This document shows, in pieces, positions 1,876-35,690 of a stretch of 37,457 bases of DNA. Each line of letters starts with the position of its first letter. Within the stretch, counting starts at the first letter, position 1. Location: positions 1-37,457 of the forward strand of contig JANWIQ010000053.1 in NCBI GenBank assembly GCA_025449795.1, in the 5' to 3' direction. The DNA comes from Minisyncoccota bacterium (lineage in GTDB: Bacteria > Patescibacteriota > Microgenomatia > Levybacterales > UBA12049). Position numbers and translations under genes: made by a program. A model generated the notes under the pieces. The model did not search any database. It was given only the letters and a program-made list of their open reading frames with translations, and was not told the DNA's origin.

Positions 1876-2724
1876 ATGCAAAAGAATAATGGCCATAAGG
1901 TTAGACATAGTTCCTTTATTGATCTCTCAGATTATGCTAGGCCAATTGCTGTCTGGATAGCATTACAATTAAAAACTACACGTATACAAGTCTATCAAAT
2001 AACACTACTCCATTTTTTTCTAATGGTTATTGCAGCAGCATTAATTGCAGTAGGTGGATTATCCAATATTCTAATTGCCTCTCTTCTTATTCTATTAAAA
2101 AACATTTTCGACGCTGTTGATGGTTCGCTTGCTAGAATTCGCAATCGACCTTCAAGGGTGGGAAGATTTTTGGATAGCAATCTTGATTTCGTAGGGAATT
2201 TATTTCTGTTTTTATCCGTTACGTACGTCCCACTATGGATACGTGTCTTTGGTTTTTTGAGTTTTGTCATTCAAGGGAGTTTTTTTAATTTCTATTATAT
2301 ACTTTTTCGTAATACCAACCATGGAGATACAACAAGTAAAGTTAACGAAGACGATCAAAGTAATTACAGTTATGATAATCGTTTTATTTTAAAGATTTTA
2401 TATTTCTTTTATAAAATCTTTTATAAATGGCAAGATGCATTTGTTTTAATTGCGGATAGAGTTATAGGAAAAAGGGGAAGAACGATACCTGCTGTATTTG
2501 TTTCCTTTTTGAGTGTTAATGGCTTGGGATTTCAATATCTAATTTTTATCTTACTATTGTCGTTGCACCAACAAATAATACTTTTTCTCTGGTTTACTAT
2601 ATTTATGAATATCTATTTAGTAATACTGTTAGCGTATTTTAGATTTTTTATACGATCCTACAGCCAATGCAGGAGAGGCAAAGAATATAGCAAAGTCTCG
2701 AAAGAGTACATCCAGCACATTTAG
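1876..2724 (+). CDS. CDP-alcohol phosphatidyltransferase-family membrane protein
   Basis: 282 aa with multiple hydrophobic helices. Full signature DAVDGSLARIRNRPSRVGRFLDSNLD (D-G-x2-A-R-x8-G-x3-D-x3-D). The ATG directly abuts the upstream stop. The non-hydrophobic C-terminal tail probably reads into the adjacent gene remnant. Confidence 0.8.
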   Translation: MQKNNGHKVRHSSFIDLSDYARPIAVWIALQLKTTRIQVYQITLLHFFLMVIAAALIAVGGLSNILIASLLILLKNIFDAVDGSLARIRNRPSRVGRFLDSNLDFVGNLFLFLSVTYVPLWIRVFGFLSFVIQGSFFNFYYILFRNTNHGDTTSKVNEDDQSNYSYDNRFILKILYFFYKIFYKWQDAFVLIADRVIGKRGRTIPAVFVSFLSVNGLGFQYLIFILLLSLHQQIILFLWFTIFMNIYLVILLAYFRFFIRSYSQCRRGKEYSKVSKEYIQHI

Positions 2725-3828: not shown

Positions 3829-5244
3829 CTACATGACATCCCCTATTTTTACGTTAAAGGGTATTTTGTACAATCCTCTGTCCATGCCATAATTAAGCCT
3901 ATTAAGAATAGAGGTAGGATATCCCAGAGATAGATAGTCTGCTTTTGGACGATAATATGCCTCTACAAAAGAGAATTTATCAAGAGTTCTGTACATTCTA
4001 TTGACTGCCTCCTCAACAGATTTTCCCGATCCGGTAATTGCGGCAATGGTGTCTCCATATCCGATATTTATAAGTTTTTTCCCTTTTTTCCTTACATCCC
4101 AGAGCCAAATATCTTTTTCTACCTCAGGGGTAAAATCAACGGTGAGTCCGCCGAGAATTTGCTGGGTTTCATTATCGCGATGCAAATTAAAAATTTTAAT
4201 TGAGGAAGCAACGGTCCCGAGAGTAAATGGGTTTTTCTTTTGCATAACTTTTTCAAAAAATTCATGCACACTTCCAGATTGGGCAAATTCAGTGAGTGAT
4301 GAATTATATCCTGGCCGATTTGGACAAAACTCTCCAAAATACATTTTTCCATCCCTTTTATTAATAAGGATGGAAGCATCCCAATAAAAAAGTCCCTTGT
4401 GCGCTTTGGCGAGCTCATCGACAATTGGGGGGAATGCAATTTCGTTGATCCTGTCATCGTCTGCAATGGGAAAAACCAAATCCGCAGCACAGCCCGTCTG
4501 AATAGAAATATTGCCACTCCCTAGCGGTTTATTCTCAATAAGGATAGATGACCCAAGTGGGACGCCGTCATAGTAAAGTTTTTCCGGCGTGACTTCCATG
4601 ACCGATGGAATAAGTAATTCTAAAATAAATCCTTCCGAGCCATAGGACGCAGCATCTTTATCCAATACTTCCATGACTTGTCGTGCTGCAAGTGATGGTT
4701 CGTCAACGTCCGGGACGAAAGCATTTGCGCCGTCGTTATTGCTTTTTAGCACCCATACCTCATCTGTCTCGCTTAAGAATTTTTTTGCATCCGAGATGCT
4801 GGTAAATTCTTTTTTGCGGGCAATATTTAATTTTGTGTAATATTTTTTAACAAATTCTTTTGCCTTATCCCGATCTGTTTCATATAAATAGTCTTCATGG
4901 GTTGGAAAATTTCCATGAAATCCCAGGTCTTTAATTTGTTCTGCAAGCGCATAGAGTCCGTTGGTATCAAAAAAAATAAAATATTCCTCTGGATTTTTGT
5001 ATGATTTCATTTCTTTGAGGAGTTCTTCTGCAGGTCTTTTTTTTAGCATGCCATCAAATATGGAAAGGCGTTGTTCTTTGTCCTGCTTCTCTTCAAGGAT
5101 ATATTCTGTTTCTTCCTCAGACGTAAGGGTTTCCGTATCATTCACTTGCGCAAGTACCACGTCTTGTCCCTCCATTTGTAAATGCTGGGCAATAGGTGTT
5201 CCTGATCCATCAAAAGTAAATACAATATATTTCATACAATACAA
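3829..5244 (-). CDS. ATP-grasp protein, phosphoribosylamine-glycine ligase (PurD)-like
   Basis: 471 aa. ENKPLGSGNISIQTGCAA resembles the PurD DHKR..DGDxGPNTGGMGA block, and GLFYWDASILINKRDGKMYFGEFCPNRPG resembles the PurD G.LY.GLM....GPKVLEFNCRFGDPE block. An alternative start is MKYIVF at 5235. Confidence 0.65.
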   Translation of the reverse strand: MYCMKYIVFTFDGSGTPIAQHLQMEGQDVVLAQVNDTETLTSEEETEYILEEKQDKEQRLSIFDGMLKKRPAEELLKEMKSYKNPEEYFIFFDTNGLYALAEQIKDLGFHGNFPTHEDYLYETDRDKAKEFVKKYYTKLNIARKKEFTSISDAKKFLSETDEVWVLKSNNDGANAFVPDVDEPSLAARQVMEVLDKDAASYGSEGFILELLIPSVMEVTPEKLYYDGVPLGSSILIENKPLGSGNISIQTGCAADLVFPIADDDRINEIAFPPIVDELAKAHKGLFYWDASILINKRDGKMYFGEFCPNRPGYNSSLTEFAQSGSVHEFFEKVMQKKNPFTLGTVASSIKIFNLHRDNETQQILGGLTVDFTPEVEKDIWLWDVRKKGKKLINIGYGDTIAAITGSGKSVEEAVNRMYRTLDKFSFVEAYYRPKADYLSLGYPTSILNRLNYGMDRGLYKIPFNVKIGDVM

Positions 5245-5321: not shown

Positions 5322-5735
5322 TTATGCTGCTTGCAGCATGCCAACGTGGTTACCCTCTGGGTCTTCAAATGAGACATAGCGTCCAACTCCAGGAATGTCA
5401 TCAATGGTATCAGGGCCTTTTGACCCGCCAAGAATTTTCCCACCTGATGCTTGTACCCTTTCCATAGCTTCTTCAAGATTGTCTACAGAGATTACCAAAT
5501 GTGGCATATTAAAGCCTTCCCTATCTTGATAATCAAAAAATCCTCCATTAATTGCGCCGGGTGTCTTGGGCATACGATTTTCACCCGTTTCTGTTGTCGC
5601 TGCCATGAGGTAATTTCCCATTTCAGGACCCATTAATGTCATCTGCCAGCCAAATGTGGAAGAGTAAAAGTCAGAAGCTCGTTTTTTGTCTTTCGCCGGC
5701 ATTTCAAAATGGACAACCGGATTCATTTTCGCCAT
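5322..5735 (-). CDS. VOC (glyoxalase/bleomycin-resistance/dioxygenase) family protein
   Basis: Start trimmed to MAKMNPVVHFEMPAKD (ATG at 5735). The pattern ...FY...FGW.......Y.......GGF........VISVDNLEEA...V.A.GGKI...........G.....F.DPEGN..G is typical of the VOC family. Confidence 0.8.
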   Translation of the reverse strand: MAKMNPVVHFEMPAKDKKRASDFYSSTFGWQMTLMGPEMGNYLMAATTETGENRMPKTPGAINGGFFDYQDREGFNMPHLVISVDNLEEAMERVQASGGKILGGSKGPDTIDDIPGVGRYVSFEDPEGNHVGMLQAA

Positions 5736-5828
5736 ATACACACTATCGCAGATACATTGTGAGAAATCAATAGGAAAACTGCGTTTCCCTTTACAACAAT
5801 CTATGGAATTTGATACAGTATACATAAT

Positions 5829-6221
5829 ATGTTTACTCCCCTTGCAACATTCTCCGGTTTCTCGGTAAATAGTTTGGAAAAAGCAAAAGAATTTTATGAG
5901 CAGACACTTGGTGTAGAAGTGGAAGATACCAAAGGTATGGGACTGAAATTGCATTTACCTGGCGGCAGTACTCTTTTTGTGTATGAAAAAGAAAACCATA
6001 CGCCGGCAACGTATACCATACTCAATTTTATTGTAGCAAATATTGATGAAGCAGTAGACACACTTTCCCAAAAAGGTGTGAAATTTGAAAGATATGAAGG
6101 CATGCCATTTACCCAAGACGAAAAAGGTATTGCCAGAGGACTAAAAAATGGCATGGGTCCTGATATTGCATGGTTTACTGACCCCGCTGGAAATGTATTG
6201 TCTGTACTGCAGGAAAAATAA
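5829..6221 (+). CDS. VOC (glyoxalase) family protein
   Basis: 130 aa. FSVNSLEKAKEFYEQTLG...NFIVANIDEAVDTLSQKGVKFE...WFTDPAGNVLSVLQ. Divergent from the neighbouring VOC gene. Confidence 0.8.
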   Translation: MFTPLATFSGFSVNSLEKAKEFYEQTLGVEVEDTKGMGLKLHLPGGSTLFVYEKENHTPATYTILNFIVANIDEAVDTLSQKGVKFERYEGMPFTQDEKGIARGLKNGMGPDIAWFTDPAGNVLSVLQEK

Positions 6222-6295: not shown

Positions 6296-7444
6296 CTATA
6301 GCCGGGACCGCGCTTGGTTTGCGTTAAATCTAATTGCCCAACGTCTCAGAAGTCCGTTATCTGTTATATTGAGCTCAGGAGTTATGTGTCTGCTGTCTTC
6401 TGTTAGTAGAATCTCATTAAGGGTTGGAGGCTTCTCGCCATAGACTGCATACCGCATTTGGATTGAATGAAGAAGCCCAAAAAAATCATGTGCGAGGTCT
6501 GAAATTGGTCTATTGGTTCCTTGTACTCGTAGTCCAACATCAAGCACTTTTATGTGATACTGATAAGGTAGTTGGCTATTGCCTTTTCGAGATCCTTCTC
6601 GCACAATCACCACATTATCTCGACCATGAAGGTCGAAATCTAAATTGTATTTATTTATCAAATCGCTTCTTAACTTACAATATTGTTCATATTCAGTTTG
6701 CAATGCTTCTAGTGCAGTATTATCCGAATTTTTTAGAGCAGCAACTTCATTGAGAGTCATAATAGTTTCATTGGGTATTTCTGGCATGATATGAATTGTT
6801 CTATTCAAAGGGATGTGTAAAAAATTACGAAATGAAACATGCCTAATTATTTGCGGAGTGGGTATGAGATTTGGTAAATCAAATATATTCATTTCTTCTT
6901 GTAGTACATCCAAATTATGATTTAGTTCATCTGCATGTTTCGGGTTGCTAGGATTTAAGAAAAATTTAGGGTCTGGGGAAAATTTTGCTCCCAGTTTTAC
7001 TACATATGACCTGTCGCCAGCGTGAAATCTATATACTAGTGAATTCCATCCTTTTCCCACGTACGTAATATCACCATATCTTGTATCAACTCCTCTTCTT
7101 GTAGAGCGTTCAGAAATTTCTCCAAAAATCTCTTGATATTCATTTGTGTCTTTTTCTCCATGGTCTTCCATGTACTTTTTGACTGCATCGAGTGCATGTA
7201 CGACAGTTTGCGTTCTGATATGTTCTTCAATAATTGGTGCTCTTTCCCAAACAGGAATTTTTCGAAAAAGTGCAAGGAGTGAATAGAAACCTCCCTCCAC
7301 TGCATTTGCTCCAAGCCCGATTCCAAAATGTTGCAATGGGCTCTGTCTTCGCTGCGTTAATTTGGGCCGCGGAGGATACGAAGGTGGCCGCACTATTGGT
7401 TTTTCTACGGTAGGTGCTCCCATAAGATAAGCCCATAATACCAC
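6296..7444 (-). CDS. Uncharacterised protein with a protein-kinase-like fold signature; probable N-terminal membrane anchor
   Basis: 382 aa from a GTG start. Glycine loop plus lysine in YVGKGWNSLVYRF...SYVVKL. Catalytic-loop-like DLHGRDNVVIV. DFG-like IKVLDVGL. The hydrophobic segment continues upstream of the called start (see findings). Confidence 0.55.
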   Translation of the reverse strand: MVLWAYLMGAPTVEKPIVRPPSYPPRPKLTQRRQSPLQHFGIGLGANAVEGGFYSLLALFRKIPVWERAPIIEEHIRTQTVVHALDAVKKYMEDHGEKDTNEYQEIFGEISERSTRRGVDTRYGDITYVGKGWNSLVYRFHAGDRSYVVKLGAKFSPDPKFFLNPSNPKHADELNHNLDVLQEEMNIFDLPNLIPTPQIIRHVSFRNFLHIPLNRTIHIMPEIPNETIMTLNEVAALKNSDNTALEALQTEYEQYCKLRSDLINKYNLDFDLHGRDNVVIVREGSRKGNSQLPYQYHIKVLDVGLRVQGTNRPISDLAHDFFGLLHSIQMRYAVYGEKPPTLNEILLTEDSRHITPELNITDNGLLRRWAIRFNANQARSRL

Positions 7445-7518: not shown

Positions 7519-8580
7519 ATGAGAAGTCCAGATACTATAGTGCGCAACACGGAACAACCTGAAACAGGCGTACCCCCTTTATTTACACATATTGCTAGAA
7601 TGCAGGGAATAGCAATGGAAAATGGAATTTTACCAATTATGGTTGGTGGATGCTGGGATCGGCTTCTTGGCGACAAGTCTACTATTTTGCCTGAAGACTA
7701 CGATCCTCTTACCCATGAGCTCATTTTGCGAAATCCTGCACAAGCTACTGCGATACGCAAAGAAAACGGTACGATAGTAGATTTTGATGCCTGGGCTATT
7801 CCCTATTCACATAAAGATGGAATAGTTGATTATCCCACCTATGAAGAAGGGTACAATTTTCCTCTAGAAGAAAGGTTAGCAGCAGTACAAAAAGCGATAC
7901 GTGAAAATGAACCTTCATCAGAAAGTGCAAGCGAAGTCTGGCCAAGACCATCATTCGAACGTATTTTTTATACGCCCCAGCCTCTTGGTAAACGCCTGAG
8001 AAGAAGATTTGGTAGAGGAATACACAGTTTTGTCCCAAAATTTAATGGAGATTTGGAAATTAGGCCACCACGTGAAGATGCAAGAGGTAGGTTTTTTTAT
8101 AGATTTGGTGGACTTGTAACAGAGAGTGGCGTAGAGCAGGAAATTAGGCTCGACTCATATGAGATTGTTAAGCTACAAGTTGCTACAACAAGTGCTTCTG
8201 GGGATTTAAAAGTTTCTGATGAATTTGTGTATGCACTTACTCCAAGGGCGCTTTTAGAAAGATATTTAGGTTCTCGGGGAAATGGTCAGATTAAATCCAC
8301 TGATTTGAGAAGGGTTGGTCCCCATGCCAATATGAGAAGGATTGCGCAAGAATTTGACACTGCATATGATAGCGCAACAGGGCGAGAAAGAGCAAGTATT
8401 GAACGCTTTAAGGAGTGGGATGATTATGTCAGACAGCTTGAAGAAACAAGCGTATTTAATCACCCATTGATATGGTTAAAAAGGCAAATTTATTATCTAT
8501 TTTGGCGCCTCCCTTTAGGAAAAAAAATTGCAAATAGCGAAAGATTTGCGGGTAGTGACGTTTCAGTTTCGGGTCAATAA
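7519..8580 (+). CDS. Hypothetical protein, possibly a nucleotidyltransferase fold (ANT(2'')/Lnu-like GGW..D.LLG motif)
   Basis: 353 aa. ENGILPIMVGGCWDRLLG ... GTIVDFDAWAI recalls the GGWGVDALLG...H.DIDI signature, but with a ~35-aa insertion. The true start may be the internal MQGIAMENG. Confidence 0.5.
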   Translation: MRSPDTIVRNTEQPETGVPPLFTHIARMQGIAMENGILPIMVGGCWDRLLGDKSTILPEDYDPLTHELILRNPAQATAIRKENGTIVDFDAWAIPYSHKDGIVDYPTYEEGYNFPLEERLAAVQKAIRENEPSSESASEVWPRPSFERIFYTPQPLGKRLRRRFGRGIHSFVPKFNGDLEIRPPREDARGRFFYRFGGLVTESGVEQEIRLDSYEIVKLQVATTSASGDLKVSDEFVYALTPRALLERYLGSRGNGQIKSTDLRRVGPHANMRRIAQEFDTAYDSATGRERASIERFKEWDDYVRQLEETSVFNHPLIWLKRQIYYLFWRLPLGKKIANSERFAGSDVSVSGQ

Positions 8581-8660: not shown

Positions 8661-10745
8661 ATGAGTGAAGTAATTAAAGTCGATCCAAGGCCCTTAAGTC
8701 ATGAAAGTTTTTTTAGTGAGAGAATTAGTTTGGGTAAGCAATTGCGTGTAGTCGCTCTGGATTTAGAGGGAATAGAGACGGGCGGAAGACATCTGGGAGA
8801 GAATGTAAGAAAAATAAGAGACATAACAACACGAGAAAAGATTCCTCTTATTGTTTCAACTGAATCAACATATCATGAAGCGAAGCAGCAATTAGGAATT
8901 ATGAACCTTCCAGTAGTCGCCTTACTTACGGAATTCGGGACAAGAATTTATTATTCAAACCAAAGTAGAGAGCTAGTTGAGGATAAAGGCTGGCAAGAGA
9001 AGTTAGAAAATAGAGAAGTAATCATTAATGGCGTATCGCATACTTGGGGTCATGGAAAGGCAAAAGGTGCCATAGTAGCTATTATAAATGATCTTCCTGA
9101 TCTGAATTTAAAACCGCCAAGTGGTGAGAATAATTTTCTTGTAAAATTTCAAGTTTCTTCAACAAGAGCTGATGAAGTCTTAAAAAAATTAAAAATTAAG
9201 ATACAAGGAGCAAAGATTACTTATGTCAAAGATCCAGACAATACAAACAGTACTACTTTTGCAATAATTCCAGATATTGCTGGAAAAATTGCAGCCTTAA
9301 CTCTAATTGAAAATGTCGTAGGCGAAAGTAAAGAAACAATAAATTTTGCATATTTTGAACATGGAACAAGTGATATTATTGCTAACGTAAATCCTCAAAT
9401 TCATCTTCAAGAGTTTTGTTCCAAATTAGAGGAGTCAGATGTCCTAAAAAGGTATAGCATAGCTCATGCGTATCCTCCCATCCAATTAGTGAAACCTCCA
9501 ATTGAGTCTTTAAGTGCATATTTGCATGAGACAACAGATGGTGACCCAAATGCGCTCCATGCAGGTCAAGAAGCAGGAAGAAGGAGTAGGTCTGAGTTTT
9601 TGTTGAGAATTGCTGAATTATTACATCTTGCTCCGGAGGGTTTGTCTGCAAACGGCTTGAGCGTGCTTGGGGCAAGGCTAGTGAGGGATGCAGCAACTGA
9701 AGGATTTATGACAAACCAATGGGGATTGCCACAGTACTACAAATATCTTAAGGGGCTTTTTATGGATGCAATGGATGGGTATAGGGCTGGCAAAAGAAAA
9801 GAAAAAAGTCCACTTGGTGGAATTACAGATTTGGCACAAGATAGGAATGAAGAGTGGTATTTTATGCTTTTAGAGGCCATCCATTTTTGGGACAGTAAAA
9901 GCTCTAGAAGAGAAGCTATGCACAGCGTTAAAGATAGGGATAATTTTATTACCGGTTTATTATCCTCTGAGGCAACTTTTTTACCAACAATTGCTGCTGC
10001 TCAGGCGAGGATGTTTGGAGGTCTTGTTAAGGAATCAAATCCTTATGGAGGCCCACTTGTGAGAAAGTATGGAGCCGGTTCTCGACCTGACAGAGTTATT
10101 AAATTATTTGGCACGACAACTATAGGGAGATCCAATGCTGCAAGAGAAATGAAAAAACTTAAAACAAATTTACTTCAAGCGTTTACCTATAGAAGCGAAA
10201 TGACACAGCTTGCTAGGAAAAATTTAGCCGATGCAACGTCTTTTAATATTGATTCTGTTGATCCATTGGATTTTAAAAATGCATCTAATTCTCAAAGAGA
10301 AAATATAGCGATTTGGATGGTGATGGTTGAATCTTTACAAAGGGCACATGAGGTGACAGTAAGAATTTTACAAGAAGCTGTGGAAGGGGGAAAAATTAAT
10401 CAGGATATCGTCAATGAATTTATTAAAGAATCACAGATACAAAATGGACAATATCTTATCGTTGATATAAAAGTATTGCAGGAAAAATGGCATGATGCTT
10501 TTTATGATCCAAAAGAGCCAGGAAATGAAACATTTGATTTTAGGAGATATGCCCATTTGCTTCCGGAGAGTTTACTTGAATTACCAACAGAACCAGGAAA
10601 AATGTTTAATCCTTTCTTTGGAATACTTCCGCCTATAAGATCTGTAAGAGAACAAACCCGTATTATTTCAAGTGATGTTGCAATTACCGATGGAAAGCGT
10701 TATGTTTCTTCGACTAGACGCGGCCGGAGAAGTCCTGCTTTCTAG
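8661..10745 (+). CDS. Large two-part protein: N-terminal HAD-IIB/sucrose-phosphatase-like domain plus a region carrying a CDP-alcohol phosphotransferase signature
   Basis: 694 aa. HAD-like motifs VVALDLEGI (motif I with the second Asp replaced by Glu), PLIVST, AGKIAAL and a degenerate EHGTSD. At aa 372-394, DGYRAGKRKEKSPLGGITDLAQD equals D-G-x2-A-[G]-x8-G-x3-D-x3-D. No obvious TM helices. Confidence 0.65.
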   Translation: MSEVIKVDPRPLSHESFFSERISLGKQLRVVALDLEGIETGGRHLGENVRKIRDITTREKIPLIVSTESTYHEAKQQLGIMNLPVVALLTEFGTRIYYSNQSRELVEDKGWQEKLENREVIINGVSHTWGHGKAKGAIVAIINDLPDLNLKPPSGENNFLVKFQVSSTRADEVLKKLKIKIQGAKITYVKDPDNTNSTTFAIIPDIAGKIAALTLIENVVGESKETINFAYFEHGTSDIIANVNPQIHLQEFCSKLEESDVLKRYSIAHAYPPIQLVKPPIESLSAYLHETTDGDPNALHAGQEAGRRSRSEFLLRIAELLHLAPEGLSANGLSVLGARLVRDAATEGFMTNQWGLPQYYKYLKGLFMDAMDGYRAGKRKEKSPLGGITDLAQDRNEEWYFMLLEAIHFWDSKSSRREAMHSVKDRDNFITGLLSSEATFLPTIAAAQARMFGGLVKESNPYGGPLVRKYGAGSRPDRVIKLFGTTTIGRSNAAREMKKLKTNLLQAFTYRSEMTQLARKNLADATSFNIDSVDPLDFKNASNSQRENIAIWMVMVESLQRAHEVTVRILQEAVEGGKINQDIVNEFIKESQIQNGQYLIVDIKVLQEKWHDAFYDPKEPGNETFDFRRYAHLLPESLLELPTEPGKMFNPFFGILPPIRSVREQTRIISSDVAITDGKRYVSSTRRGRRSPAF

Positions 10746-20263: not shown

Positions 20264-21631
20264 TTATTGTCCCCTTGCTCCACCTGCTCCTGAGCCACCT
20301 GATCGGAAAACAGCTCCCCCGCCGCCAAAACCTCCAAATCCGCGGGTTGCACTAAAAGGTGAAGAAGCGCTTGTGCCACTTGCTGTTGTGGAAATACCAG
20401 TTACCACGCTCTGTCCTTCAGAAAGTCCAGAGGTAATTTCTGTATCTGTATCAGAGCTAATACCGATAGTGACAGGTACTTGTTGTATTTGGCCATTTTG
20501 TAAGACCCGGACTGTTGGAGATGTTCCTGTGTTTTGTATTGCAGCAGAAGGGACAGTAAGGACGTCATCTTTGCGTGCTGTTTGTATATTGACTGTTGCA
20601 GACATGCCTGGTTCTATCTCCTCTGGTGCAGCAAGAAAAGCAACATATATATTGTAGGTAACTACGCCAGAGGTAACTGTACCTACCGTATCTACTCCTT
20701 GCACTTGCCCGACAAATGTTTTACCAGGAAATGCATTCAGGGTTATAGTTGCTTTTTGCCCTGTTTTAATTTTTGGAATGTCTACTTCACTTGCCTGAAT
20801 TTTAATAGTTGGACGTGAAAAGTCACCAACAGTAAGGACAGTGGTGCCGGATGCGGTATTGGCAGAAGAAGCAAGTTCGCTTGTCAGATTGCCGCTACTT
20901 GCGGTTACTTGGGAGCCAACTTGGACAGAAATATTTGCAATTGTACCGCTAATTGGCGAGGTGACAAGTGAATCCTGAGTTGCTTGGTATGCTAAAGATG
21001 CAGAGTTAAGGCCAGCTTGGGCTGCGTTGATGACGCCTTGCTGGTTAGTATAATCTGCTTGCGCCTGCAGCCATGCCGCATTTTCTTCAATATATTTTGG
21101 ATCTGCCATCTGGCCAACGCTTGGATTGGCTACCCCTCTATCCGTAACGAATGCTTGGTTGGCAACAAAAAGTGCTTCTTGTAAAGAATTCATTTTTGCC
21201 TGTGCGCTATTGAGGGTATTTTGGGCCGCAAGCAAAGACGCATATGCGCTGGCAATCTCTTGTGAAGTTGCCGTACTTTTTACTTTAAATAAATTTTGCC
21301 CAACCGTTACGGTATCGCCGTCTTTTACATACAATGCCTCAACAACCCCTGTGGTGGGCGAGCCAATGCCGCCTTGGCTATTGGTAGAAATATTTCCAGA
21401 CTCACTTACAGAGGCAATAATGGTGCGCTTTGTCACCTGGGCTGTCTGGTATTGTGGCGAAGAAGTACTTTGGGTAAATGTTTTCCATCCAAAAAACCCA
21501 AGAATTACCACAAAAAAAAGCGTAAGGAACGTTCGCCATTTTGTGCCAAAAAGGAGTGGTTTTGTCTGTTGAAGCGTATGCACAAAAAAAGAATTTTTAT
21601 TTTCTTTGGCAATTTGCTTATCTGTTGTCAT
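20264..21631 (-). CDS. Efflux periplasmic adaptor subunit (MacA/HlyD family) with a Gly-rich C-terminal tail
   Basis: Start trimmed to MTTDKQIAKE (ATG at 21631). TM (FLTLFFVVILGFFGW), lipoyl motif VKDGDTVTVGQNLFKV, coiled coil, beta-barrel. The tail is GFGGFGGGGAVFRSGGSGAGGARGQ. Confidence 0.85.
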   Translation of the reverse strand: MTTDKQIAKENKNSFFVHTLQQTKPLLFGTKWRTFLTLFFVVILGFFGWKTFTQSTSSPQYQTAQVTKRTIIASVSESGNISTNSQGGIGSPTTGVVEALYVKDGDTVTVGQNLFKVKSTATSQEIASAYASLLAAQNTLNSAQAKMNSLQEALFVANQAFVTDRGVANPSVGQMADPKYIEENAAWLQAQADYTNQQGVINAAQAGLNSASLAYQATQDSLVTSPISGTIANISVQVGSQVTASSGNLTSELASSANTASGTTVLTVGDFSRPTIKIQASEVDIPKIKTGQKATITLNAFPGKTFVGQVQGVDTVGTVTSGVVTYNIYVAFLAAPEEIEPGMSATVNIQTARKDDVLTVPSAAIQNTGTSPTVRVLQNGQIQQVPVTIGISSDTDTEITSGLSEGQSVVTGISTTASGTSASSPFSATRGFGGFGGGGAVFRSGGSGAGGARGQ

Positions 21632-21641
21632 AATTTTTTTC

Positions 21642-21755
21642 GGGGTCCTGCCAACCGCAACTTTTTCCCTTCGGTACACCCAGGGCAAGCCAGTGCTTGC
21701 GACCCTTTTTATCCTGAGCAAAGTCGAAGGAGAAAAAACTCGTGCCTGTCATCCC
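21642..21755 (-). repeat. 114-nt structured repeat element, copy B, between the histidine kinase and the MFP start
   Basis: Near-identical to 19333-19445. It ends 10 nt upstream of the MFP ATG. Confidence 0.8.
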
Positions 21756-21809
21756 TTCTCGTATCCTCTCTATGCACTATAGTTTTACCATCTGAAAAAG
21801 TGCTGAAAG

Positions 21810-22814
21810 TTATTTTTCAAGCGGCAAGAAAACAGTAAAGGTTGTTTTATTTCCCAAAATGCTCTTGACTGCTATATGTCCATGATGCTCGGTAATTATT
21901 TTTTTCGCAATAGATAGACCCAATCCATATCCTGGAATTTCCTGCTTTGTGCGGGATATATCTGCGCGATAAAATCTATCGAAGATATGGGGAATTGCTG
22001 CCTCTTCTATCCCCATTCCCTGGTCTGTTATTTGGATTGCTGCTTTGTCATCTACCATGTGTATGGTAATAGTGATTACGGTTTTTTTTGGGCTATATTT
22101 GATGGCATTATCAAGAAGAATGGCAAATACCTGAGACAGGCTGTCTTTGTCTCCTTTTACTCGAAGGTCACGGGTCGGTTTTTTTATGGAAATATTTTTT
22201 TGTTTTGCCAATTTTTCCGTTTTTTTCATCGCCATTTGTAGCACGTGCTGAAGGGAGATAGGAGTAGATACGTGGCGTTGGGATTTTTGCTCCCGCACGA
22301 GTTGTATCAGATTGTCAGACAATATGTGCAAATTATTTACCTCTTCAAGATTGCTTACCAGGAGTGCATCTGCTTCTTCTTTGGTGCGATGTTTGCTTCG
22401 CAAATAGACTTCTATTTCGGATTTGAGCGACGTAATAGGGGTACGAAGCTCGTGGGAAACGTCGGTAACAAATCGATTTTGCTCATCCATCATTTGTTTT
22501 ATTGGACGCAGAGTAAATCCTGCTAAGATGTATCCTCCAATACCTGAAACGCCAAAAATAATACAATTTACGTAAATAAGAATCCATTGTATTCTGTCTT
22601 CTGATGCTTGCAGATAGGAAGGTTCTAATAGCTGAGGATTCATCTGTGGCGCCAGAGCACCAAATTCCTGGGAGTACCTTTGCGTAATCCTATGGAAGCT
22701 GCGGTCAAGTTCGTTTGTTAGAATATGGTAGATAGAAAAACTAAACATAATGCTAATAAGCATAATAATGAGAAGATACCATATGGTGAGTGTAATGCGG
22801 GCTGTAGTAAACAT
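21810..22814 (-). CDS. Sensor histidine kinase (two TM segments, HisKA plus HATPase_c)
   Basis: 334 aa. H-box VSHELRTPITSL, N-box LLDNAIKYS, G-boxes DQGMGI and GYGLGLSIAKKIITEHHG. Confidence 0.9.
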   Translation of the reverse strand: MFTTARITLTIWYLLIIMLISIMFSFSIYHILTNELDRSFHRITQRYSQEFGALAPQMNPQLLEPSYLQASEDRIQWILIYVNCIIFGVSGIGGYILAGFTLRPIKQMMDEQNRFVTDVSHELRTPITSLKSEIEVYLRSKHRTKEEADALLVSNLEEVNNLHILSDNLIQLVREQKSQRHVSTPISLQHVLQMAMKKTEKLAKQKNISIKKPTRDLRVKGDKDSLSQVFAILLDNAIKYSPKKTVITITIHMVDDKAAIQITDQGMGIEEAAIPHIFDRFYRADISRTKQEIPGYGLGLSIAKKIITEHHGHIAVKSILGNKTTFTVFLPLEK

Positions 22815-22815
22815 A

Positions 22816-23487
22816 TTATCCTATCTTGTATCCAAATCCTCGTACGGTGTGAATAAGCGGGTTTGTAAAGGGTTTGTCTATTTTGCTGCGCAGTAATTTG
22901 ATATACACCTCTACGGTATTGGGAAGAATATTTGCGTCATAATTCCATACGTGCGCAATAATTTGTTCTTTTGTGAGGACTTTTTGGGCATGTCGCATAA
23001 GGTATTCTAAAAGTGAAAATTCTTTACTGGAAAGCGCAAGGGGTCTGCCTTCCCTTTCCACGGAAAAAGTAAGCGTATCGAGCGTGAGTGTCCCAACGGA
23101 AAGGACATGTCCAAGCGTAGCCTTTGGCCTTCGCGTGAGAGCTCTTACTCGTGCAAGCAGCTCTTCAAAAGCAAAAGGTTTCGCAAGATAGTCATCTGCA
23201 CCAGCATTAAGGCCTTCTACCTTGTCTTCTACCTGTCCTTTTGCGGTAAGAAGGAGAATTGGCGTGTGGATTTCCTGCGAGCGCAATTTTTTGCAAATTT
23301 CAATGCCATCAATTCCCGGAAGTAATCTATCCAGAATAATAAGGTCATATTCTTCGCTTGCTGCCATGTCATATCCTTCGCTTCCCGTGTATATGGCATC
23401 TGCTGCAAAAAGCTCCTGCGCCAGACCCTTTTTTATGGAGTTGGCAATCTTATGTTCGTCTTCAACAACGAGGATTCTCATACCCAT
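22816..23487 (-). CDS. OmpR/PhoB-family response regulator
   Basis: 223 aa. Receiver domain (RILVVEDE...DLIILDRLLPGIDG...LLLTAKG) and winged-helix trans_reg_C domain (LTLD...LSSKEFSLLEYLM...VRGFGYKI). An alternative start is the second ATG at 23481. Confidence 0.92.
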   Translation of the reverse strand: MGMRILVVEDEHKIANSIKKGLAQELFAADAIYTGSEGYDMAASEEYDLIILDRLLPGIDGIEICKKLRSQEIHTPILLLTAKGQVEDKVEGLNAGADDYLAKPFAFEELLARVRALTRRPKATLGHVLSVGTLTLDTLTFSVEREGRPLALSSKEFSLLEYLMRHAQKVLTKEQIIAHVWNYDANILPNTVEVYIKLLRSKIDKPFTNPLIHTVRGFGYKIG

Positions 23488-35351: not shown

Positions 35352-35435
35352 GCCGCGGTGGTGAAATGGTATACACGGAGGCCTTAAGAGCCTTTGTCCT
35401 TATACGACGTGCGAGTTCGAGTCTCGCCCGCGGCA
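35352..35435 (+). tRNA. tRNA-Leu (anticodon UAA), class II long variable arm; no encoded CCA
   Basis: Hand-folded. Acceptor GCCGCGG/CCGCGGC, D stem GUG/CAC, anticodon arm GAGGC-CUUAAGA-GCCUU, T arm GCGAG-UUCGAGU-CUCGC, discriminator A. Confidence 0.9.
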
Positions 35436-35458
35436 CACACCTGGTAAAATATATACAA

Positions 35459-35532
35459 CGGGGATTAGCTCAGTTGGCTAGAGCGCGCGGTTTGGGACCG
35501 TGAGGTCGGAAGTTCGAGTCTTCTATCCCCGA
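35459..35532 (+). tRNA. tRNA-Pro (anticodon UGG); no encoded CCA
   Basis: Acceptor CGGGGAU/AUCCCCG, D arm GCUC-AGUUGGCUA-GAGC, anticodon arm CGCGG-UUUGGGA-CCGUG, T arm GGAAG-UUCGAGU-CUUCU. Confidence 0.9.
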
Positions 35533-35537
35533 CACAT

Positions 35538-35612
35538 GCGGGTTTAGCTCAGTGGTAGAGCATCTGCTTTCCAAGCAGAGTGTCGTGGGTTCGAGTCCCA
35601 TAACCCGCTCCA
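35538..35612 (+). tRNA. tRNA-Gly (anticodon UCC) with encoded CCA
   Basis: Acceptor GCGGGUU/AACCCGC, anticodon arm UCUGC-UUUCCAA-GCAGA, T arm GUGGG-UUCGAGU-CCCAU, discriminator U, then CCA. Confidence 0.9.
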
Positions 35613-35614
35613 CT

Positions 35615-35687
35615 GCTCCCATAGCTCAGTGGATAGAGCATTTCGGTTCTAACGAAGTGGTCGGGGGTTCGAATCCCTCTGGGAGCG
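35615..35687 (+). tRNA. tRNA-Arg (anticodon UCU); no encoded CCA
   Basis: Acceptor GCUCCCA/UGGGAGC, D arm GCUC-AGUGGAUA-GAGC, anticodon arm UUUCG-GUUCUAA-CGAAG, T arm GGGGG-UUCGAAU-CCCUC, discriminator G. Confidence 0.88.
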
Positions 35688-35690
35688 CAG

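What the first reader, a model, noticed from the sequence alone, without database searches (positions are those of the whole stretch)
9774..9842. Near-perfect CDP-alcohol phosphotransferase signature in an apparently soluble HAD-fusion protein
Residues 372-394 of the 694-aa protein read DGYRAGKRKEKSPLGGITDLAQD. This matches D-G-x2-A-R-x8-G-x3-D-x3-D at every fixed position except R-to-G. It is preceded by SANGLSVLGARLV, which resembles the (T)PN.(I/L)T..R N-terminal helix of that family. Known members, including the bona fide one at 1876-2724, embed this motif in a polytopic membrane domain. Here the flanking sequence is hydrophilic with no obvious TM helix. The region is also fused to a HAD-IIB/sucrose-phosphatase-like domain whose motif I is DLEG rather than DxDG. 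My rough estimate is that six fixed residues with this spacing would arise by chance about once in a thousand windows of this size. A soluble or peripheral derivative of this family would be novel.
Basis: partly seen in the sequence, partly recalled or inferred. Interest (0 to 1): 0.65.

Follow-up and report, generated by a model that had tools for sequence, protein, structure and literature searches.

The report
Membrane-free CDP-alcohol phosphotransferase fused to phosphatase
This gene encodes a divergent member of a very rare bacterial protein family in which an enzyme fold so far known only buried in membranes (CDP-alcohol phosphotransferase) appears as a water-soluble domain fused to a sugar-phosphatase-like domain, which would be the first soluble form of this textbook membrane enzyme.

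Summary
Residues 369-394 of the 694-aa ORF (8661..10745, +) match the extended signature D-x2-D-G-x2-A-R-x8-G-x3-D-x3-D at 7 of 8 fixed positions.

The match is not chance. It never occurred in 300 shuffles.

About 25 homologues exist among billions of proteins. All keep D1-D4, both glycines and the alanine. 18 of 20 keep the Arg, and all carry the helix-1 (S/T)PN..(S/T) motif.

- **Sequence profiles:** family profiles hit only CDP-alcohol phosphotransferases, and several members pass Pfam's own PF01066 cut-off.
- **Fold:** AlphaFold models superpose on the whole six-helix M. tuberculosis PIP synthase (TM-score 0.70-0.72).
- **Membrane helices:** no family member has any.

The window copy is the odd member. 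Its transferase site lacks only Arg377, a change shared with one other homologue. Its HAD phosphatase site has lost three catalytic residues that are otherwise near-invariant.

Two orphan genes (6296..7444 and 7519..8580) travel with the gene.

The most likely function is a cytoplasmic CDP-alcohol:polyol(-phosphate) phosphotransferase, coupled to a phosphatase in canonical members. The chemistry is inferred, not shown.

The parts
8661..10745 (+). [not shown]
   Evidence: ORF. Homologues. No hydrophobic segment.
8742..9425 (+). N-terminal HAD-IIB (sucrose-phosphatase-like) domain, residues ~28-255
   Evidence: Pfam S6PP at 32.2 bits. AF2 model pLDDT is 70-90 here. Best Foldseek hit is 1s2o sucrose phosphatase, E 8.8e-7.
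8760..8771 (+). HAD motif I, D34-L-E36-G. The Asp+2 general acid/base is replaced by Glu.
   Evidence: This position is D in 19 of 20 family members and E only in the window protein.
9354..9374 (+). HAD motif IV, F-E233-H234-G-T-S-D238. The family consensus is F-G-D-x3-D.
   Evidence: G-D occurs in 19 of 20 members and E-H only here. D238, T67 and K209 are kept in 20/20.
9426..9620 (+). Low-confidence linker, residues 256-320
   Evidence: pLDDT is below 50 for residues 276-320.
9621..10205 (+). Core of the C-terminal domain, residues ~321-515. These helices correspond to the six TM helices of CDP-alcohol phosphotransferases.
   Evidence: The AF2 domain model has pTM 0.79. Its top 10 PDB hits are all CDP-alcohol phosphotransferases, with PgsA1 at TMt 0.71-0.72 over 214-228 columns. 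The top 3 BFVD hits are the same family. Helices have mean hydropathy -0.9 to +0.65 and 1-8 charged residues each.
9642..9671 (+). Helix-1 motif L-S-A-N331-G-L-S334-V-L-G, the counterpart of (T)PN.(I/L)T..(R/G)
   Evidence: It aligns with the PNLIT and PNLVT helices of CEPT1 and CHPT1. N331 is kept in 18/20, S/T334 in 19/20 and G337 in 19/20. In M. tuberculosis PgsA1, D31 and T34 on TM1 bind the cytidine (PMC6506517). Equating them with N331 and S334 is my inference.
9765..9845 (+). Signature D369-A-M-D372-G373-Y-R375-A376-G377 ... G386 ... D390 ... D394-R395
   Evidence: It matches 7 of 8 fixed positions. D369, D372, G373, R375, A376, D390, D394, R395 and E398 are kept in 20/20. Position 377 is R in 18/20 and G in the window and L011.
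10287..10502 (+). C-terminal helical extension, residues 543-614. It is absent from membrane enzymes and predicted to belong to the same compact domain.
   Evidence: pLDDT is 83-95. It is conserved in full-length homologues. A role in covering the former lipid-facing surface is inference.
10578..10745 (+). Disordered, window-specific C-terminal tail, residues ~640-694
   Evidence: pLDDT is below 40. No counterpart exists in most homologues.
6296..7444 (-). Gene X: conserved orphan neighbour, 382 aa here and ~276 aa elsewhere
   Evidence: It lies next to or near Z in 11 of 13 loci, including the distant L002 at 35% identity, E 9e-44. It has no significant hit in Pfam, NCBIfam, PDB sequences or PADLOC.
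7519..8580 (+). Gene Y: second orphan neighbour, 353 aa, directly upstream of Z
   Evidence: It is homologous to L002 8725-9897, which lies between X and Z there (BLASTP E 9e-6). It resembles Z-adjacent genes in L007, L011 and L014 only weakly, E 0.03-0.05 in a 236-ORF set. No family hit was found.

Best explanation
The 694-aa protein is a real but divergent member of a very rare family of cytoplasmic two-domain proteins.

**Domain architecture.**
- The N-terminal domain is a HAD-IIB, sucrose-phosphatase-like phosphatase.
- The C-terminal domain is a true homologue of the CDP-alcohol phosphotransferase fold. Its six formerly transmembrane helices have become amphipathic or polar, and three extra helices have been added.

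**Conserved active-site elements (shown).**
- The cytidine-binding helix-1 motif.
- Both glycines and the alanine that line the nucleotide cleft.
- All four metal-binding and catalytic aspartates.
- An invariant Arg immediately after D4.

**Proposed mechanism for canonical members (inferred).**
1. The C-domain binds a soluble CDP-alcohol with two Mg2+ ions.
2. D4 deprotonates a hydroxyl of a soluble polyol or polyol-phosphate acceptor.
3. A phosphodiester forms and CMP is released.
4. The fused HAD domain removes the leftover phosphate.

This is the synthase-plus-phosphatase logic of PIP synthase with PIP phosphatase, PGP synthase with PGP phosphatase, DIPP synthase with its phosphatase, and sucrose-phosphate synthase with sucrose phosphatase.

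**The window copy.** The transferase site is nearly intact. Only R377 is lost, a change shared with one other homologue, and the family-invariant R375 sits two residues away. The HAD site has lost three otherwise near-invariant catalytic residues: D36E, G233E and D234H. This copy therefore most likely keeps transferase, or at least CDP-alcohol and metal binding, function, with a disabled or repurposed phosphatase domain.

Homology, motif conservation and the absence of TM helices are shown. The fold is predicted. Substrates, catalysis and true solubility are inferred.
For: **Motif statistics.** 7/8 match, with 0 of 300 shuffles reaching it.

**Family.** 14 relatives among 1.84 billion cluster representatives, 9 loci among 185,579 species genomes, and one metagenome locus.

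**Conservation across 20 full-length members.**
- D369, D372, G373, R375, A376, D390, D394, R395 and E398 are kept in 20/20.
- R377 is kept in 18/20 and G386 in 19/20.
- N331 is kept in 18/20 and S/T334 in 19/20.

**Profile evidence.**
- PF01066 is hit by 11 of 14 members, four of them above the 22-bit gathering score.
- NF040950 is hit by 7 of 7 central members, best E 1.4e-8, covering profile positions 12-134 of 191.
- The window protein itself hits NF040950 at E 0.0054 over residues 311-404.
- The family profile finds 15 CDP-alcohol phosphotransferases among 16 PDB hits.
- hhalign gives 78% probability, E 1.8e-5.

**Fold.** The domain model has pTM 0.79. Its top 10 PDB hits are all this family, with PgsA1 at TM-score 0.70-0.72. 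The top 3 viral-library hits are the same family.

**No TM helices.** The core has GRAVY -0.37, 26% charged residues and 0 TM-like segments. Bona fide relatives have +0.40, 17% and 3-6 segments.

**Residue roles in M. tuberculosis PgsA1 (PMC6506517).**
- D1-D4 bind two Mg2+ ions.
- G72, A75 and G85 line the nucleotide cleft.
- R76 and G72 hold the alpha-phosphoryl group.
- R94, the residue after D4, is critical for inositol-phosphate binding.

**Other supporting observations.**
- The nearest subfamilies (AIP, PIP and PGP synthases) all use phosphorylated polyol acceptors whose products need a phosphatase.
- HAD catalytic motifs are intact in 19 of 20 members.
- Stand-alone C-domains exist in L014 and L015, so the domain is an autonomous unit.
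- One protein, P0008, carries two C-domains in tandem. Known enzymes are homodimers.
- The R377G change recurs in L011, which has a canonical HAD domain.
Against: - There is no biochemical evidence of any kind.
- The window protein alone is below every curated family threshold: PF01066 at 12.9 against 22 bits, and NF040950 at 16.6 against 180 bits.
- Foldseek E-values are modest, 0.01-0.2, despite probability 1.00.
- hhalign covers only the first 87 columns.
- The alignment behind the AF2 model has only 14-15 sequences.
- R377 contacts the CDP alpha-phosphate in PgsA1, so its loss could cripple catalysis.
- Three HAD catalytic residues are lost in this copy only, with no close relative to show that the changes are selected. 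This is what a decaying or non-catalytic paralogue would look like.
- An Arg after D4 is also found, from my memory, in eukaryotic PI synthases that use free inositol. It does not prove a phosphorylated acceptor.
- No cytidylyltransferase or inositol-phosphate synthase gene is linked.
- The conserved neighbours X and Y have no recognisable fold.
- Hydropathy cannot exclude peripheral membrane binding.
Confidence: 0.6

Rival explanations
1. The window copy is a non-catalytic paralogue, either a pseudoenzyme or a decaying gene, of the soluble family. It keeps the fold and perhaps ligand binding. It neither transfers phospho-alcohols nor hydrolyses phosphate esters. Any role it has is regulatory, as a scaffold, or none.
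For: - It is the only one of 20 members with E at the HAD Asp+2 position and E-H instead of G-D in motif IV.
- It lacks the signature Arg.
- Family-conserved R446 and E450 on helix 4 are also changed.
- It is only 20-29% identical to relatives.
- It carries a unique disordered 55-residue tail.
- It is a singleton in the protein collection.
Against: - The ORF is intact over 694 codons.
- All four Asp, both Gly, the Ala, R375, R395, E398 and the helix-1 N/S pair are retained.
- R377G recurs in L011 next to a canonical HAD domain.
- The R446 and E450 changes are shared with P0002 and P0006, which keep the full signature, so they define a subclade rather than decay.
- The X-Y-Z gene trio is kept as in L002.
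Confidence: 0.25
2. The family is a peripheral, monotopic membrane enzyme rather than a truly soluble one. It docks on the bilayer through amphipathic helices and uses a lipid donor such as CDP-diacylglycerol to make a phospholipid head group (PIP- or PGP-like). The HAD domain then dephosphorylates the product.
For: - The closest subfamilies by profile and fold are lipid enzymes: AIP synthase, PIP synthase and PgsA.
- Several helices have high hydrophobic moments.
- A few segments approach, but do not pass, the TM threshold, with a maximum of 1.64.
- Some host MAGs are labelled Patescibacteria or Levyibacteriota. From my own knowledge, such organisms are thought to lack standard lipid synthesis.
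Against: - No hydrophobic segment long enough to hold acyl chains or span a leaflet was found in any member.
- The core is 26% charged residues.
- In PgsA1 the acyl chains lie along the lipid-exposed faces of TM2 and TM5, and those faces are polar here.
- The window genome already encodes a bona fide membrane enzyme of the same subfamily, at 1876..2724.
Confidence: 0.15
3. The motif is a chance match in an unrelated helical protein.
For: The window protein alone gives only sub-threshold profile scores: PF01066 at E 0.15 and NF040950 at E 0.0054.
Against: - 0 of 300 shuffles reach 7/8.
- The motif is invariant in homologues.
- Family profiles hit only this enzyme family.
- The predicted fold matches the whole enzyme.
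Confidence: 0.01

Closest known systems
Phosphatidylinositol-phosphate synthase (M. tuberculosis PgsA1, PDB 6h53/6h59; PIPS 5d92, 6wm5) and archaetidylinositol-phosphate synthase (NCBIfam NF040950), class I CDP-alcohol phosphotransferases, Pfam PF01066
   Same: - The signature D1xxD2GxxAR...GxxxD3xxxD4 is shared.
- The helix-1 PN..T motif is shared.
- Both have an Arg immediately after D4.
- The predicted six-helix arrangement superposes on the whole enzyme at TM-score 0.70-0.72.
- These are the best profile hits.

Supporting calls: 43, 56, 73.
   Different: - This family has no transmembrane helices: GRAVY -0.37 against +0.40.
- It has an extra family-invariant Arg (DGxRAR), an invariant E398, and a conserved LPSIARAQAE helix.
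- It has a ~70-residue C-terminal helical extension.
- It is fused to a HAD phosphatase.
- The window copy lacks the signature Arg.
- Scores are far below the equivalog cut-offs, 34.8 against 180 bits.
IPCT/DIPPS (PDB 4mnd) and AF2299 (4o6m): CDP-alcohol phosphotransferases with soluble substrates or fused cytoplasmic domains
   Same: - DIPP synthase makes a soluble phosphodiester from CDP-inositol and inositol-1-phosphate, and the product is then dephosphorylated. This comes from my own knowledge (Rodrigues et al. 2007) and was not checked here. It shows that the chemistry does not need a lipid substrate.
- Both are multi-domain fusions with a soluble partner domain.
- Both appear among the profile and fold hits.
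   Different: - Their transferase domain is still a six-TM membrane domain.
- Their fused partner is a cytidylyltransferase, or a domain of that type, not a HAD phosphatase.
Sucrose-phosphate phosphatase / mannosyl-3-phosphoglycerate phosphatase group of HAD-IIB (Pfam PF05116 S6PP; PDB 1s2o, 1wzc)
   Same: - The N-terminal domain passes the S6PP gathering score.
- It matches 1s2o best by fold.
- These phosphatases are second-step enzymes of synthase-plus-phosphatase pathways and are often fused to their synthase, for example in TIGR02471.
   Different: - The fused partner here is a CDP-alcohol-phosphotransferase-like domain, not a glycosyltransferase.
- In the window copy, motif I is DLE rather than DxD, and motif IV is EH...D rather than GD...D.

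Membership tests
CDP-alcohol phosphotransferase (Pfam PF01066, class I CDP-AP) | Signature D1-x2-D2-G-x2-A-R-x(7-8 or more)-G-x3-D3-x3-D4 | tested here: met
   The window protein matches 7 of 8 positions, with R377 changed to G. In the family, seven positions are kept in 19-20 of 20 members and the Arg in 18 of 20. For the window protein alone the Arg position is not met.
CDP-alcohol phosphotransferase (Pfam PF01066, class I CDP-AP) | Score at or above Pfam's gathering threshold of 22 bits | tested here: not met
   The window protein scores 12.9 bits, E 0.15. Among relatives, P0008 scores 29.7, L015 24.3, P0009 23.5 and P0015 23.0, which pass. P0011 scores 21.9, P0013 19.5 and P0003 18.3, which do not.
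CDP-alcohol phosphotransferase (Pfam PF01066, class I CDP-AP) | Six-helix fold with the signature on helices 2 and 3 and the PN..T motif on helix 1 | tested here: met
   This rests on a predicted structure only. The domain model has pTM 0.79. PgsA1 matches at TM-score 0.70-0.72 and rmsd 4.4-5.1 A over 214-228 columns. The helix-1 motif aligns.
CDP-alcohol phosphotransferase (Pfam PF01066, class I CDP-AP) | Polytopic integral membrane protein with about 6 or more TM helices | tested here: not met
   There are 0 TM-like segments (Kyte-Doolittle 19-residue mean of 1.6 or more) in the window protein and in 14 of 15 C-domains, with a family maximum of 1.64. The 20 bona fide relatives have 3-6 segments each. 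DeepTMHMM and TMHMM were not available.
CDP-alcohol phosphotransferase (Pfam PF01066, class I CDP-AP) | Catalyses CDP-alcohol + alcohol -> phosphodiester + CMP, dependent on Mg2+ or Mn2+ | not testable with these tools
   This needs an enzyme assay.
Archaetidylinositol-phosphate / PIP synthase equivalogs (NCBIfam NF040950, NF045883) | Score at or above the equivalog cut-off (180 and 170 bits) | tested here: not met
   The window protein scores 16.6 bits. The best family member scores 34.8 bits. These are the nearest subfamilies, but the protein is not a member of them.
HAD-IIB phosphatase, sucrose-phosphatase-like (Pfam PF05116) | Pfam gathering score and a Rossmann-like core plus C2B cap fold | tested here: met
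   The score is 32.2 bits against a 20.3-bit cut-off. Foldseek finds 1s2o at E 8.8e-7, followed by many HAD-IIB structures.
HAD-IIB phosphatase, sucrose-phosphatase-like (Pfam PF05116) | Four catalytic motifs: I DxD, II S/T, III K/R, IV (G/S)D-x3-4-D | tested here: not met
   In the window protein, motif I is D34-L-E36, motif II is T67 (kept), motif III is K209 (kept), and motif IV is E233-H234-x3-D238. The other 19 members have DxD and GD-x3-D.

The most novel reading that the evidence does not exclude
Nature has converted a polytopic membrane enzyme fold into a catalytically active water-soluble enzyme. Together with the two conserved orphan genes X and Y, it forms a previously unknown cytoplasmic pathway. 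That pathway builds a soluble phosphodiester metabolite, or phospho-alcohol modification, from a CDP-activated alcohol in uncultivated bacteria.
Probability: 0.35. Interest if true: 0.85.

Novelty: new variant of a known kind. Interest (0 to 1): 0.7.

Why it matters
CDP-alcohol phosphotransferases make the head groups of most phospholipids in all domains of life. The papers read here describe them as integral membrane or transmembrane enzymes (PMC6506517 and PMC4634129).

A naturally soluble version would have several consequences:
- It would show that the fold and the two-metal active site do not need a bilayer.
- It would give an easy-to-handle model for a family that includes drug targets such as M. 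tuberculosis PgsA1 and fungal PS synthase.
- It would provide a natural counterpart to the designed soluble analogues of membrane proteins.
- It would point to unknown soluble phosphodiester metabolism in poorly known bacteria.

The fusion to a phosphatase, and the two conserved orphan partners, give concrete handles for finding the substrates.

Tried and rejected
**Searches that added nothing**
- The word-indexed homologue search found only the query itself, both with the protein and with the family alignment.
- The window protein against PDB sequences found only a designed repeat protein at E 0.21.
- A genome scan with the 12-sequence alignment failed because it was too divergent. It worked with 7 closer sequences.
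- The metagenome scan for close relatives of the window copy gave only one locus, L015, a stand-alone C-domain at 28% identity. Whether the window-specific substitutions are conserved therefore could not be tested.

**Gene X as a kinase: rejected as unsupported**
- By eye it has a Gly-rich loop, an invariant Lys, an Asn and a D-x-G.
- Profile searches of PDB sequences, Pfam, NCBIfam and PADLOC found nothing significant.

**Gene Y as a nucleotidyltransferase: untested**
- The idea rests on a GG ... DxD pattern seen by eye.
- No hit was found in Pfam, NCBIfam, PDB sequences or PADLOC.

**Other dead ends**
- The organism could not be identified.
- The promoter and terminator scan was at background level.
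- Three literature searches for a soluble or TM-less CDP-alcohol phosphotransferase, one of them also requiring a haloacid-dehalogenase term, and one for the enzyme in Candidate Phyla Radiation bacteria, found none in the held library. That library is incomplete.
- A defence-system reading is unsupported, because PADLOC gave no hits for X, Y or Z.
Full report
**1. The observation**

The ORF at 8661..10745 (+) encodes 694 aa.

The full family signature is D1-x2-D2-G-x2-A-R-x8-G-x3-D3-x3-D4. The protein matches it at 7 of 8 fixed positions, and only R377 is replaced, by Gly.

A six-frame scan of the window finds only one other match at 6/8 or better. That is the bona fide membrane enzyme at 1876..2724, which scores 8/8.

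Chance expectation is low:
- In 300 residue shuffles of the six translations, no match at 7/8 or better appeared, and matches at 6/8 or better occurred 0.01 times per window.
- The analytic expectation at six-frame composition is 4.7e-5 per window for 7/8 or better.
- With typical coding composition I estimate about 2e-4. This is my own arithmetic.

The highest 19-residue Kyte-Doolittle mean in the whole protein is 1.5, and it lies in the HAD domain. The bona fide enzyme reaches 2.6.

**2. A rare family with an invariant motif**

The word-indexed protein search found only the query. An exhaustive HMMER scan of 1.84 billion cluster representatives found 14 relatives at E values from 1e-16 to 6e-4. 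Nearly all are singletons from metagenome assemblies.

A pattern scan of one genome per species (185,579 species) added nine loci. The MAGs are labelled uncultured Gammaproteobacteria, Patescibacteria, Levyibacteriota and Eisenbacteria. A metagenome scan added one more locus.

Conservation in a 20-sequence alignment of full-length members:

| Element | Residue (window numbering) | Kept in family |
|---|---|---|
| Signature | D369, D372, G373, A376, D390, D394 | 20/20 |
| Signature | G386 | 19/20 |
| Signature Arg | R377 | 18/20 (Gly in the window and in L011) |
| Family-specific | R375 (giving DGxRAR), R395 (directly after D4), E398 | 20/20 |
| Helix 1 | N331 | 18/20 |
| Helix 1 | S/T334, G337 | 19/20 each |

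The upstream helix is conserved as (S/T)(P/A)N(E/D)(I/V)(S/T)xxG.

The motif therefore does not vary freely. It is the most conserved feature of the family.

**3. Homology to CDP-alcohol phosphotransferases**

On its own, the window protein gives only sub-threshold hits. PF01066 scores 12.9 bits at E 0.15. NCBIfam archaetidylinositol-phosphate synthase scores E 0.0054 over residues 311-404.

The family gives consistent evidence:
- 11 of 14 members hit PF01066.
- Four proteins pass its 22-bit gathering score: P0008 at 29.7, the L015 stand-alone domain at 24.3, P0009 at 23.5 and P0015 at 23.0.
- All seven central members hit NF040950, best E 1.4e-8, covering profile positions 12-134 of 191. Three also hit PIP synthase and two hit PgsA.
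- A profile of the C-terminal domain searched against all PDB sequences returns 16 hits, and 15 are CDP-alcohol phosphotransferases. These include CEPT1 at E 2.7e-4, CHPT1, PI and PIP synthases, DIPPS, AF2299, PS synthase and PgsA. The alignment runs from the PN..T helix through D4.
- hhalign against 20 bona fide relatives of the window's own membrane enzyme gives 78% probability and E 1.8e-5 over 87 columns.

**4. Predicted fold**

The AlphaFold2 model of the whole protein has pLDDT 69.6, built from a 14-sequence alignment. It shows a HAD domain, a low-confidence linker (residues 276-320) and an all-helical C-terminal domain.

Foldseek against the PDB first finds HAD-IIB phosphatases, with sucrose phosphatase 1s2o at E 8.8e-7. 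The first non-HAD hits are PIP synthases, with 6h59_B at TM-score 0.70 normalised to the target.

The domain-only model has pLDDT 75.9 and pTM 0.79. Its top ten PDB hits are all CDP-alcohol phosphotransferases. M. tuberculosis PgsA1 superposes over 214-228 columns, which is the entire 191-199-residue enzyme, at TM-score 0.71-0.72 and rmsd 4.4-5.1 A.

In the viral structure library, the top three hits are giant-virus CDP-alcohol phosphatidyltransferases.

The Foldseek E-values are modest (0.01-0.2) although the probabilities are 1.00. The model rests on a shallow alignment. I could not inspect the coordinates, so I could not check that the four Asp residues cluster.

**5. No membrane helices**

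None of the relatives has a 19-residue window above 1.64.

| Measure | Soluble-family core | 20 bona fide relatives |
|---|---|---|
| Mean GRAVY | -0.37 | +0.40 |
| Charged residues | 26% | 17% |
| TM-like segments | 0 in 14 of 15 domains | 3-6 each |

In the window protein, the helices that correspond to TM1-TM6 have mean hydropathy between -0.9 and +0.65 and carry 1-8 charged residues each. Three additional, confidently predicted helices (residues 543-614) follow the core. That they cover the former lipid-facing surface is my inference.

TMHMM and DeepTMHMM were not available. Hydropathy cannot exclude peripheral membrane binding.

**6. What is special about the window copy**

Canonical members have all four HAD motifs: DxDGT, T, K and FGDxxxD. 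The window protein keeps D34, T67, K209 and D238. It is the only one of 20 with Glu at the Asp+2 position and with E233-H234 in place of Gly-Asp in motif IV. Its phosphatase is therefore probably disabled or altered.

In the transferase domain it lacks only R377. In M. tuberculosis PgsA1, the equivalent R76, together with G72, holds the alpha-phosphoryl group of CDP (PMC6506517), so this could matter. Two observations soften the concern:
- The same R-to-G change occurs in the L011 homologue, which has a canonical HAD domain.
- L011 shares a response-regulator, histidine-kinase and HlyD block with the window.

The family-invariant R375 lies two residues away. That it can compensate is my inference.

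Changes at the family-conserved R446 and E450 are shared with P0002 and P0006, which keep the full signature.

**7. Genomic context**

An all-against-all comparison of ORFs in 13 loci shows that an orphan gene, X, lies beside or near the family gene in 11 of them. In the window it is at 6296..7444 (-).

These 11 loci include L002, which shares no other neighbour with the window. X is 35% identical there, at E 9e-44.

A second orphan, Y, lies directly upstream at 7519..8580 (+). It is homologous to the gene between X and Z in L002 (E 9e-6). It resembles Z-adjacent genes in L007, L011 and L014 only weakly.

Neither X nor Y matches anything significant in Pfam, NCBIfam, PDB sequences or PADLOC. 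My by-eye impression that X looks kinase-like was not supported by hhalign against PKA or NPTII.

Most of the other shared neighbours among L005-L014 probably reflect relatedness of those genomes.

Other architectures in the family:
- Stand-alone C-domains occur in L014 and L015.
- P0008 carries two C-domains in tandem. This fits the homodimeric nature of the membrane enzymes.

**8. Mechanism**

Shown:
- The domain is homologous to CDP-alcohol phosphotransferases.
- It keeps every residue that in PgsA1 binds the two Mg2+ ions (D1-D4) and lines the nucleotide cleft (two Gly and one Ala).
- It keeps what I take to be the counterparts, on helix 1, of the residues that contact the cytidine.
- It keeps the Arg after D4, which in PgsA1 is critical for inositol-phosphate binding.

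Inferred:
1. The domain binds a soluble CDP-alcohol.
2. It transfers the phospho-alcohol to a hydroxyl of a soluble polyol or polyol-phosphate, releasing CMP.
3. In canonical members, the fused HAD-IIB domain removes the remaining phosphate.

This parallels PIP synthase followed by PIP -> PI + Pi. It also parallels PGP synthase with its phosphatase, DIPP synthase with its phosphatase, and sucrose-phosphate synthase with sucrose phosphatase. The last three rest on my own knowledge.

The alternative order is not excluded. The phosphatase could act first to produce the acceptor.

For the window copy, I consider transferase-only function, or CDP-alcohol binding only, most likely. A non-catalytic paralogue is the main rival.

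**9. Comparison with what is known, and novelty**

The nearest known enzymes are the AIP, PIP and PGP synthase group of class I CDP-alcohol phosphotransferases.

- Features met: the signature (apart from R377 in the window copy), the helix-1 motif and the predicted fold.
- Defining feature tested and not met: polytopic membrane embedding.
- Curated thresholds: the window protein is below all of them.

It should therefore not simply be filed as a PF01066 enzyme. It is a TM-less derivative of that fold.

The papers read here describe the family as integral membrane or transmembrane enzymes. Four text searches found no report of a soluble member, although the held library is incomplete.

I rate it a new variant of a known kind. 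Interest is about 0.7. It would surprise specialists and is directly testable, but it rests entirely on sequence analysis and predicted structure.

Noticed in passing
window 6296-7444 (-) and homologues L002 7574-8740, L005 9119-9964, L006-L010, L012-L014: Orphan gene X lies beside or near the family gene in 11 of 13 loci. Invariant residues (window numbering) include K150, E173, N277, H297 and D302-x-G304. It has no significant hit in any library, and a kinase-like reading by eye was not supported by hhalign.
   Followed up: partly
window 7519-8580 (+); L002 8725-9897 (-); weakly L007 3617-4453, L011 7066-8010, L014 6329-7135: Orphan gene Y lies between X and Z. Its homologues share a 'VGG...GLL ... 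DGTxxDxD' stretch and a C-terminal 'KR...YW..G' stretch. The fold is unknown, and a nucleotidyltransferase-like pattern is only a guess.
   Followed up: partly
P0008 (843 aa, JGI metagenome): One family member has one HAD domain followed by two complete C-terminal domains in tandem, with signatures at residues 345 and 628. This suggests that the soluble domain works as a dimer, as the membrane enzymes do.
   Followed up: no
L011 7833-9605 (+): A second homologue carries the same Arg-to-Gly change in the signature (DVADGIRAGR) but has a canonical HAD motif, DFDGT. L011 also shares a response-regulator (64% identity), histidine-kinase and HlyD block with window 20264-23487.
   Followed up: partly
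L014 7986-8912 (+) and L015 5740-6831 (+): These are stand-alone versions of the TM-less C-terminal domain, 308 and 363 aa, without a HAD domain. L015 has no X or Y nearby.
   Followed up: partly
L012, L013, L014 family genes: Some members have long Lys-rich insertions between DGIRAR and the G-x3-D-x3-D half of the signature. The x8 spacing is therefore not universal in this family.
   Followed up: no
window 1876-2724 (+): This bona fide membrane CDP-alcohol phosphotransferase has 8/8 signature positions. Its best NCBIfam hits are the inositol-phosphate-type synthases (NF040950 at E 6e-15, then DIPPS and PIPS). Its named relatives are mostly Acidobacteria MAGs at about 45-50% identity.
   Followed up: partly
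window 3829-5244 (-): A 471-aa ORF has only a weak ATP-grasp-like match (purD, TIGR00877, E 2.3e-7, residues 101-209) and no Pfam family above threshold. It lies between the bona fide transferase and the X-Y-Z trio.
   Followed up: no
window 5322-5954 (-) and 5829-6221 (+): Two ORFs on opposite strands overlap at their 5' ends, and both carry a glyoxalase/VOC domain. The start of the minus-strand gene is probably further downstream than the first start codon.
   Followed up: no
window 35352-35688 (+): A tight cluster of four tRNA genes: Leu-TAA, Pro-TGG, Gly-TCC and Arg-TCT.
   Followed up: no
L005-L014 (titles, synteny): Loci labelled Gammaproteobacteria, Patescibacteria, Eisenbacteria and Levyibacteriota share long stretches of gene order (BacA, RF-1, ClpB, Nramp and others) and 29-37% GC. 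Some of these MAG taxonomic labels are therefore probably wrong.
   Followed up: no
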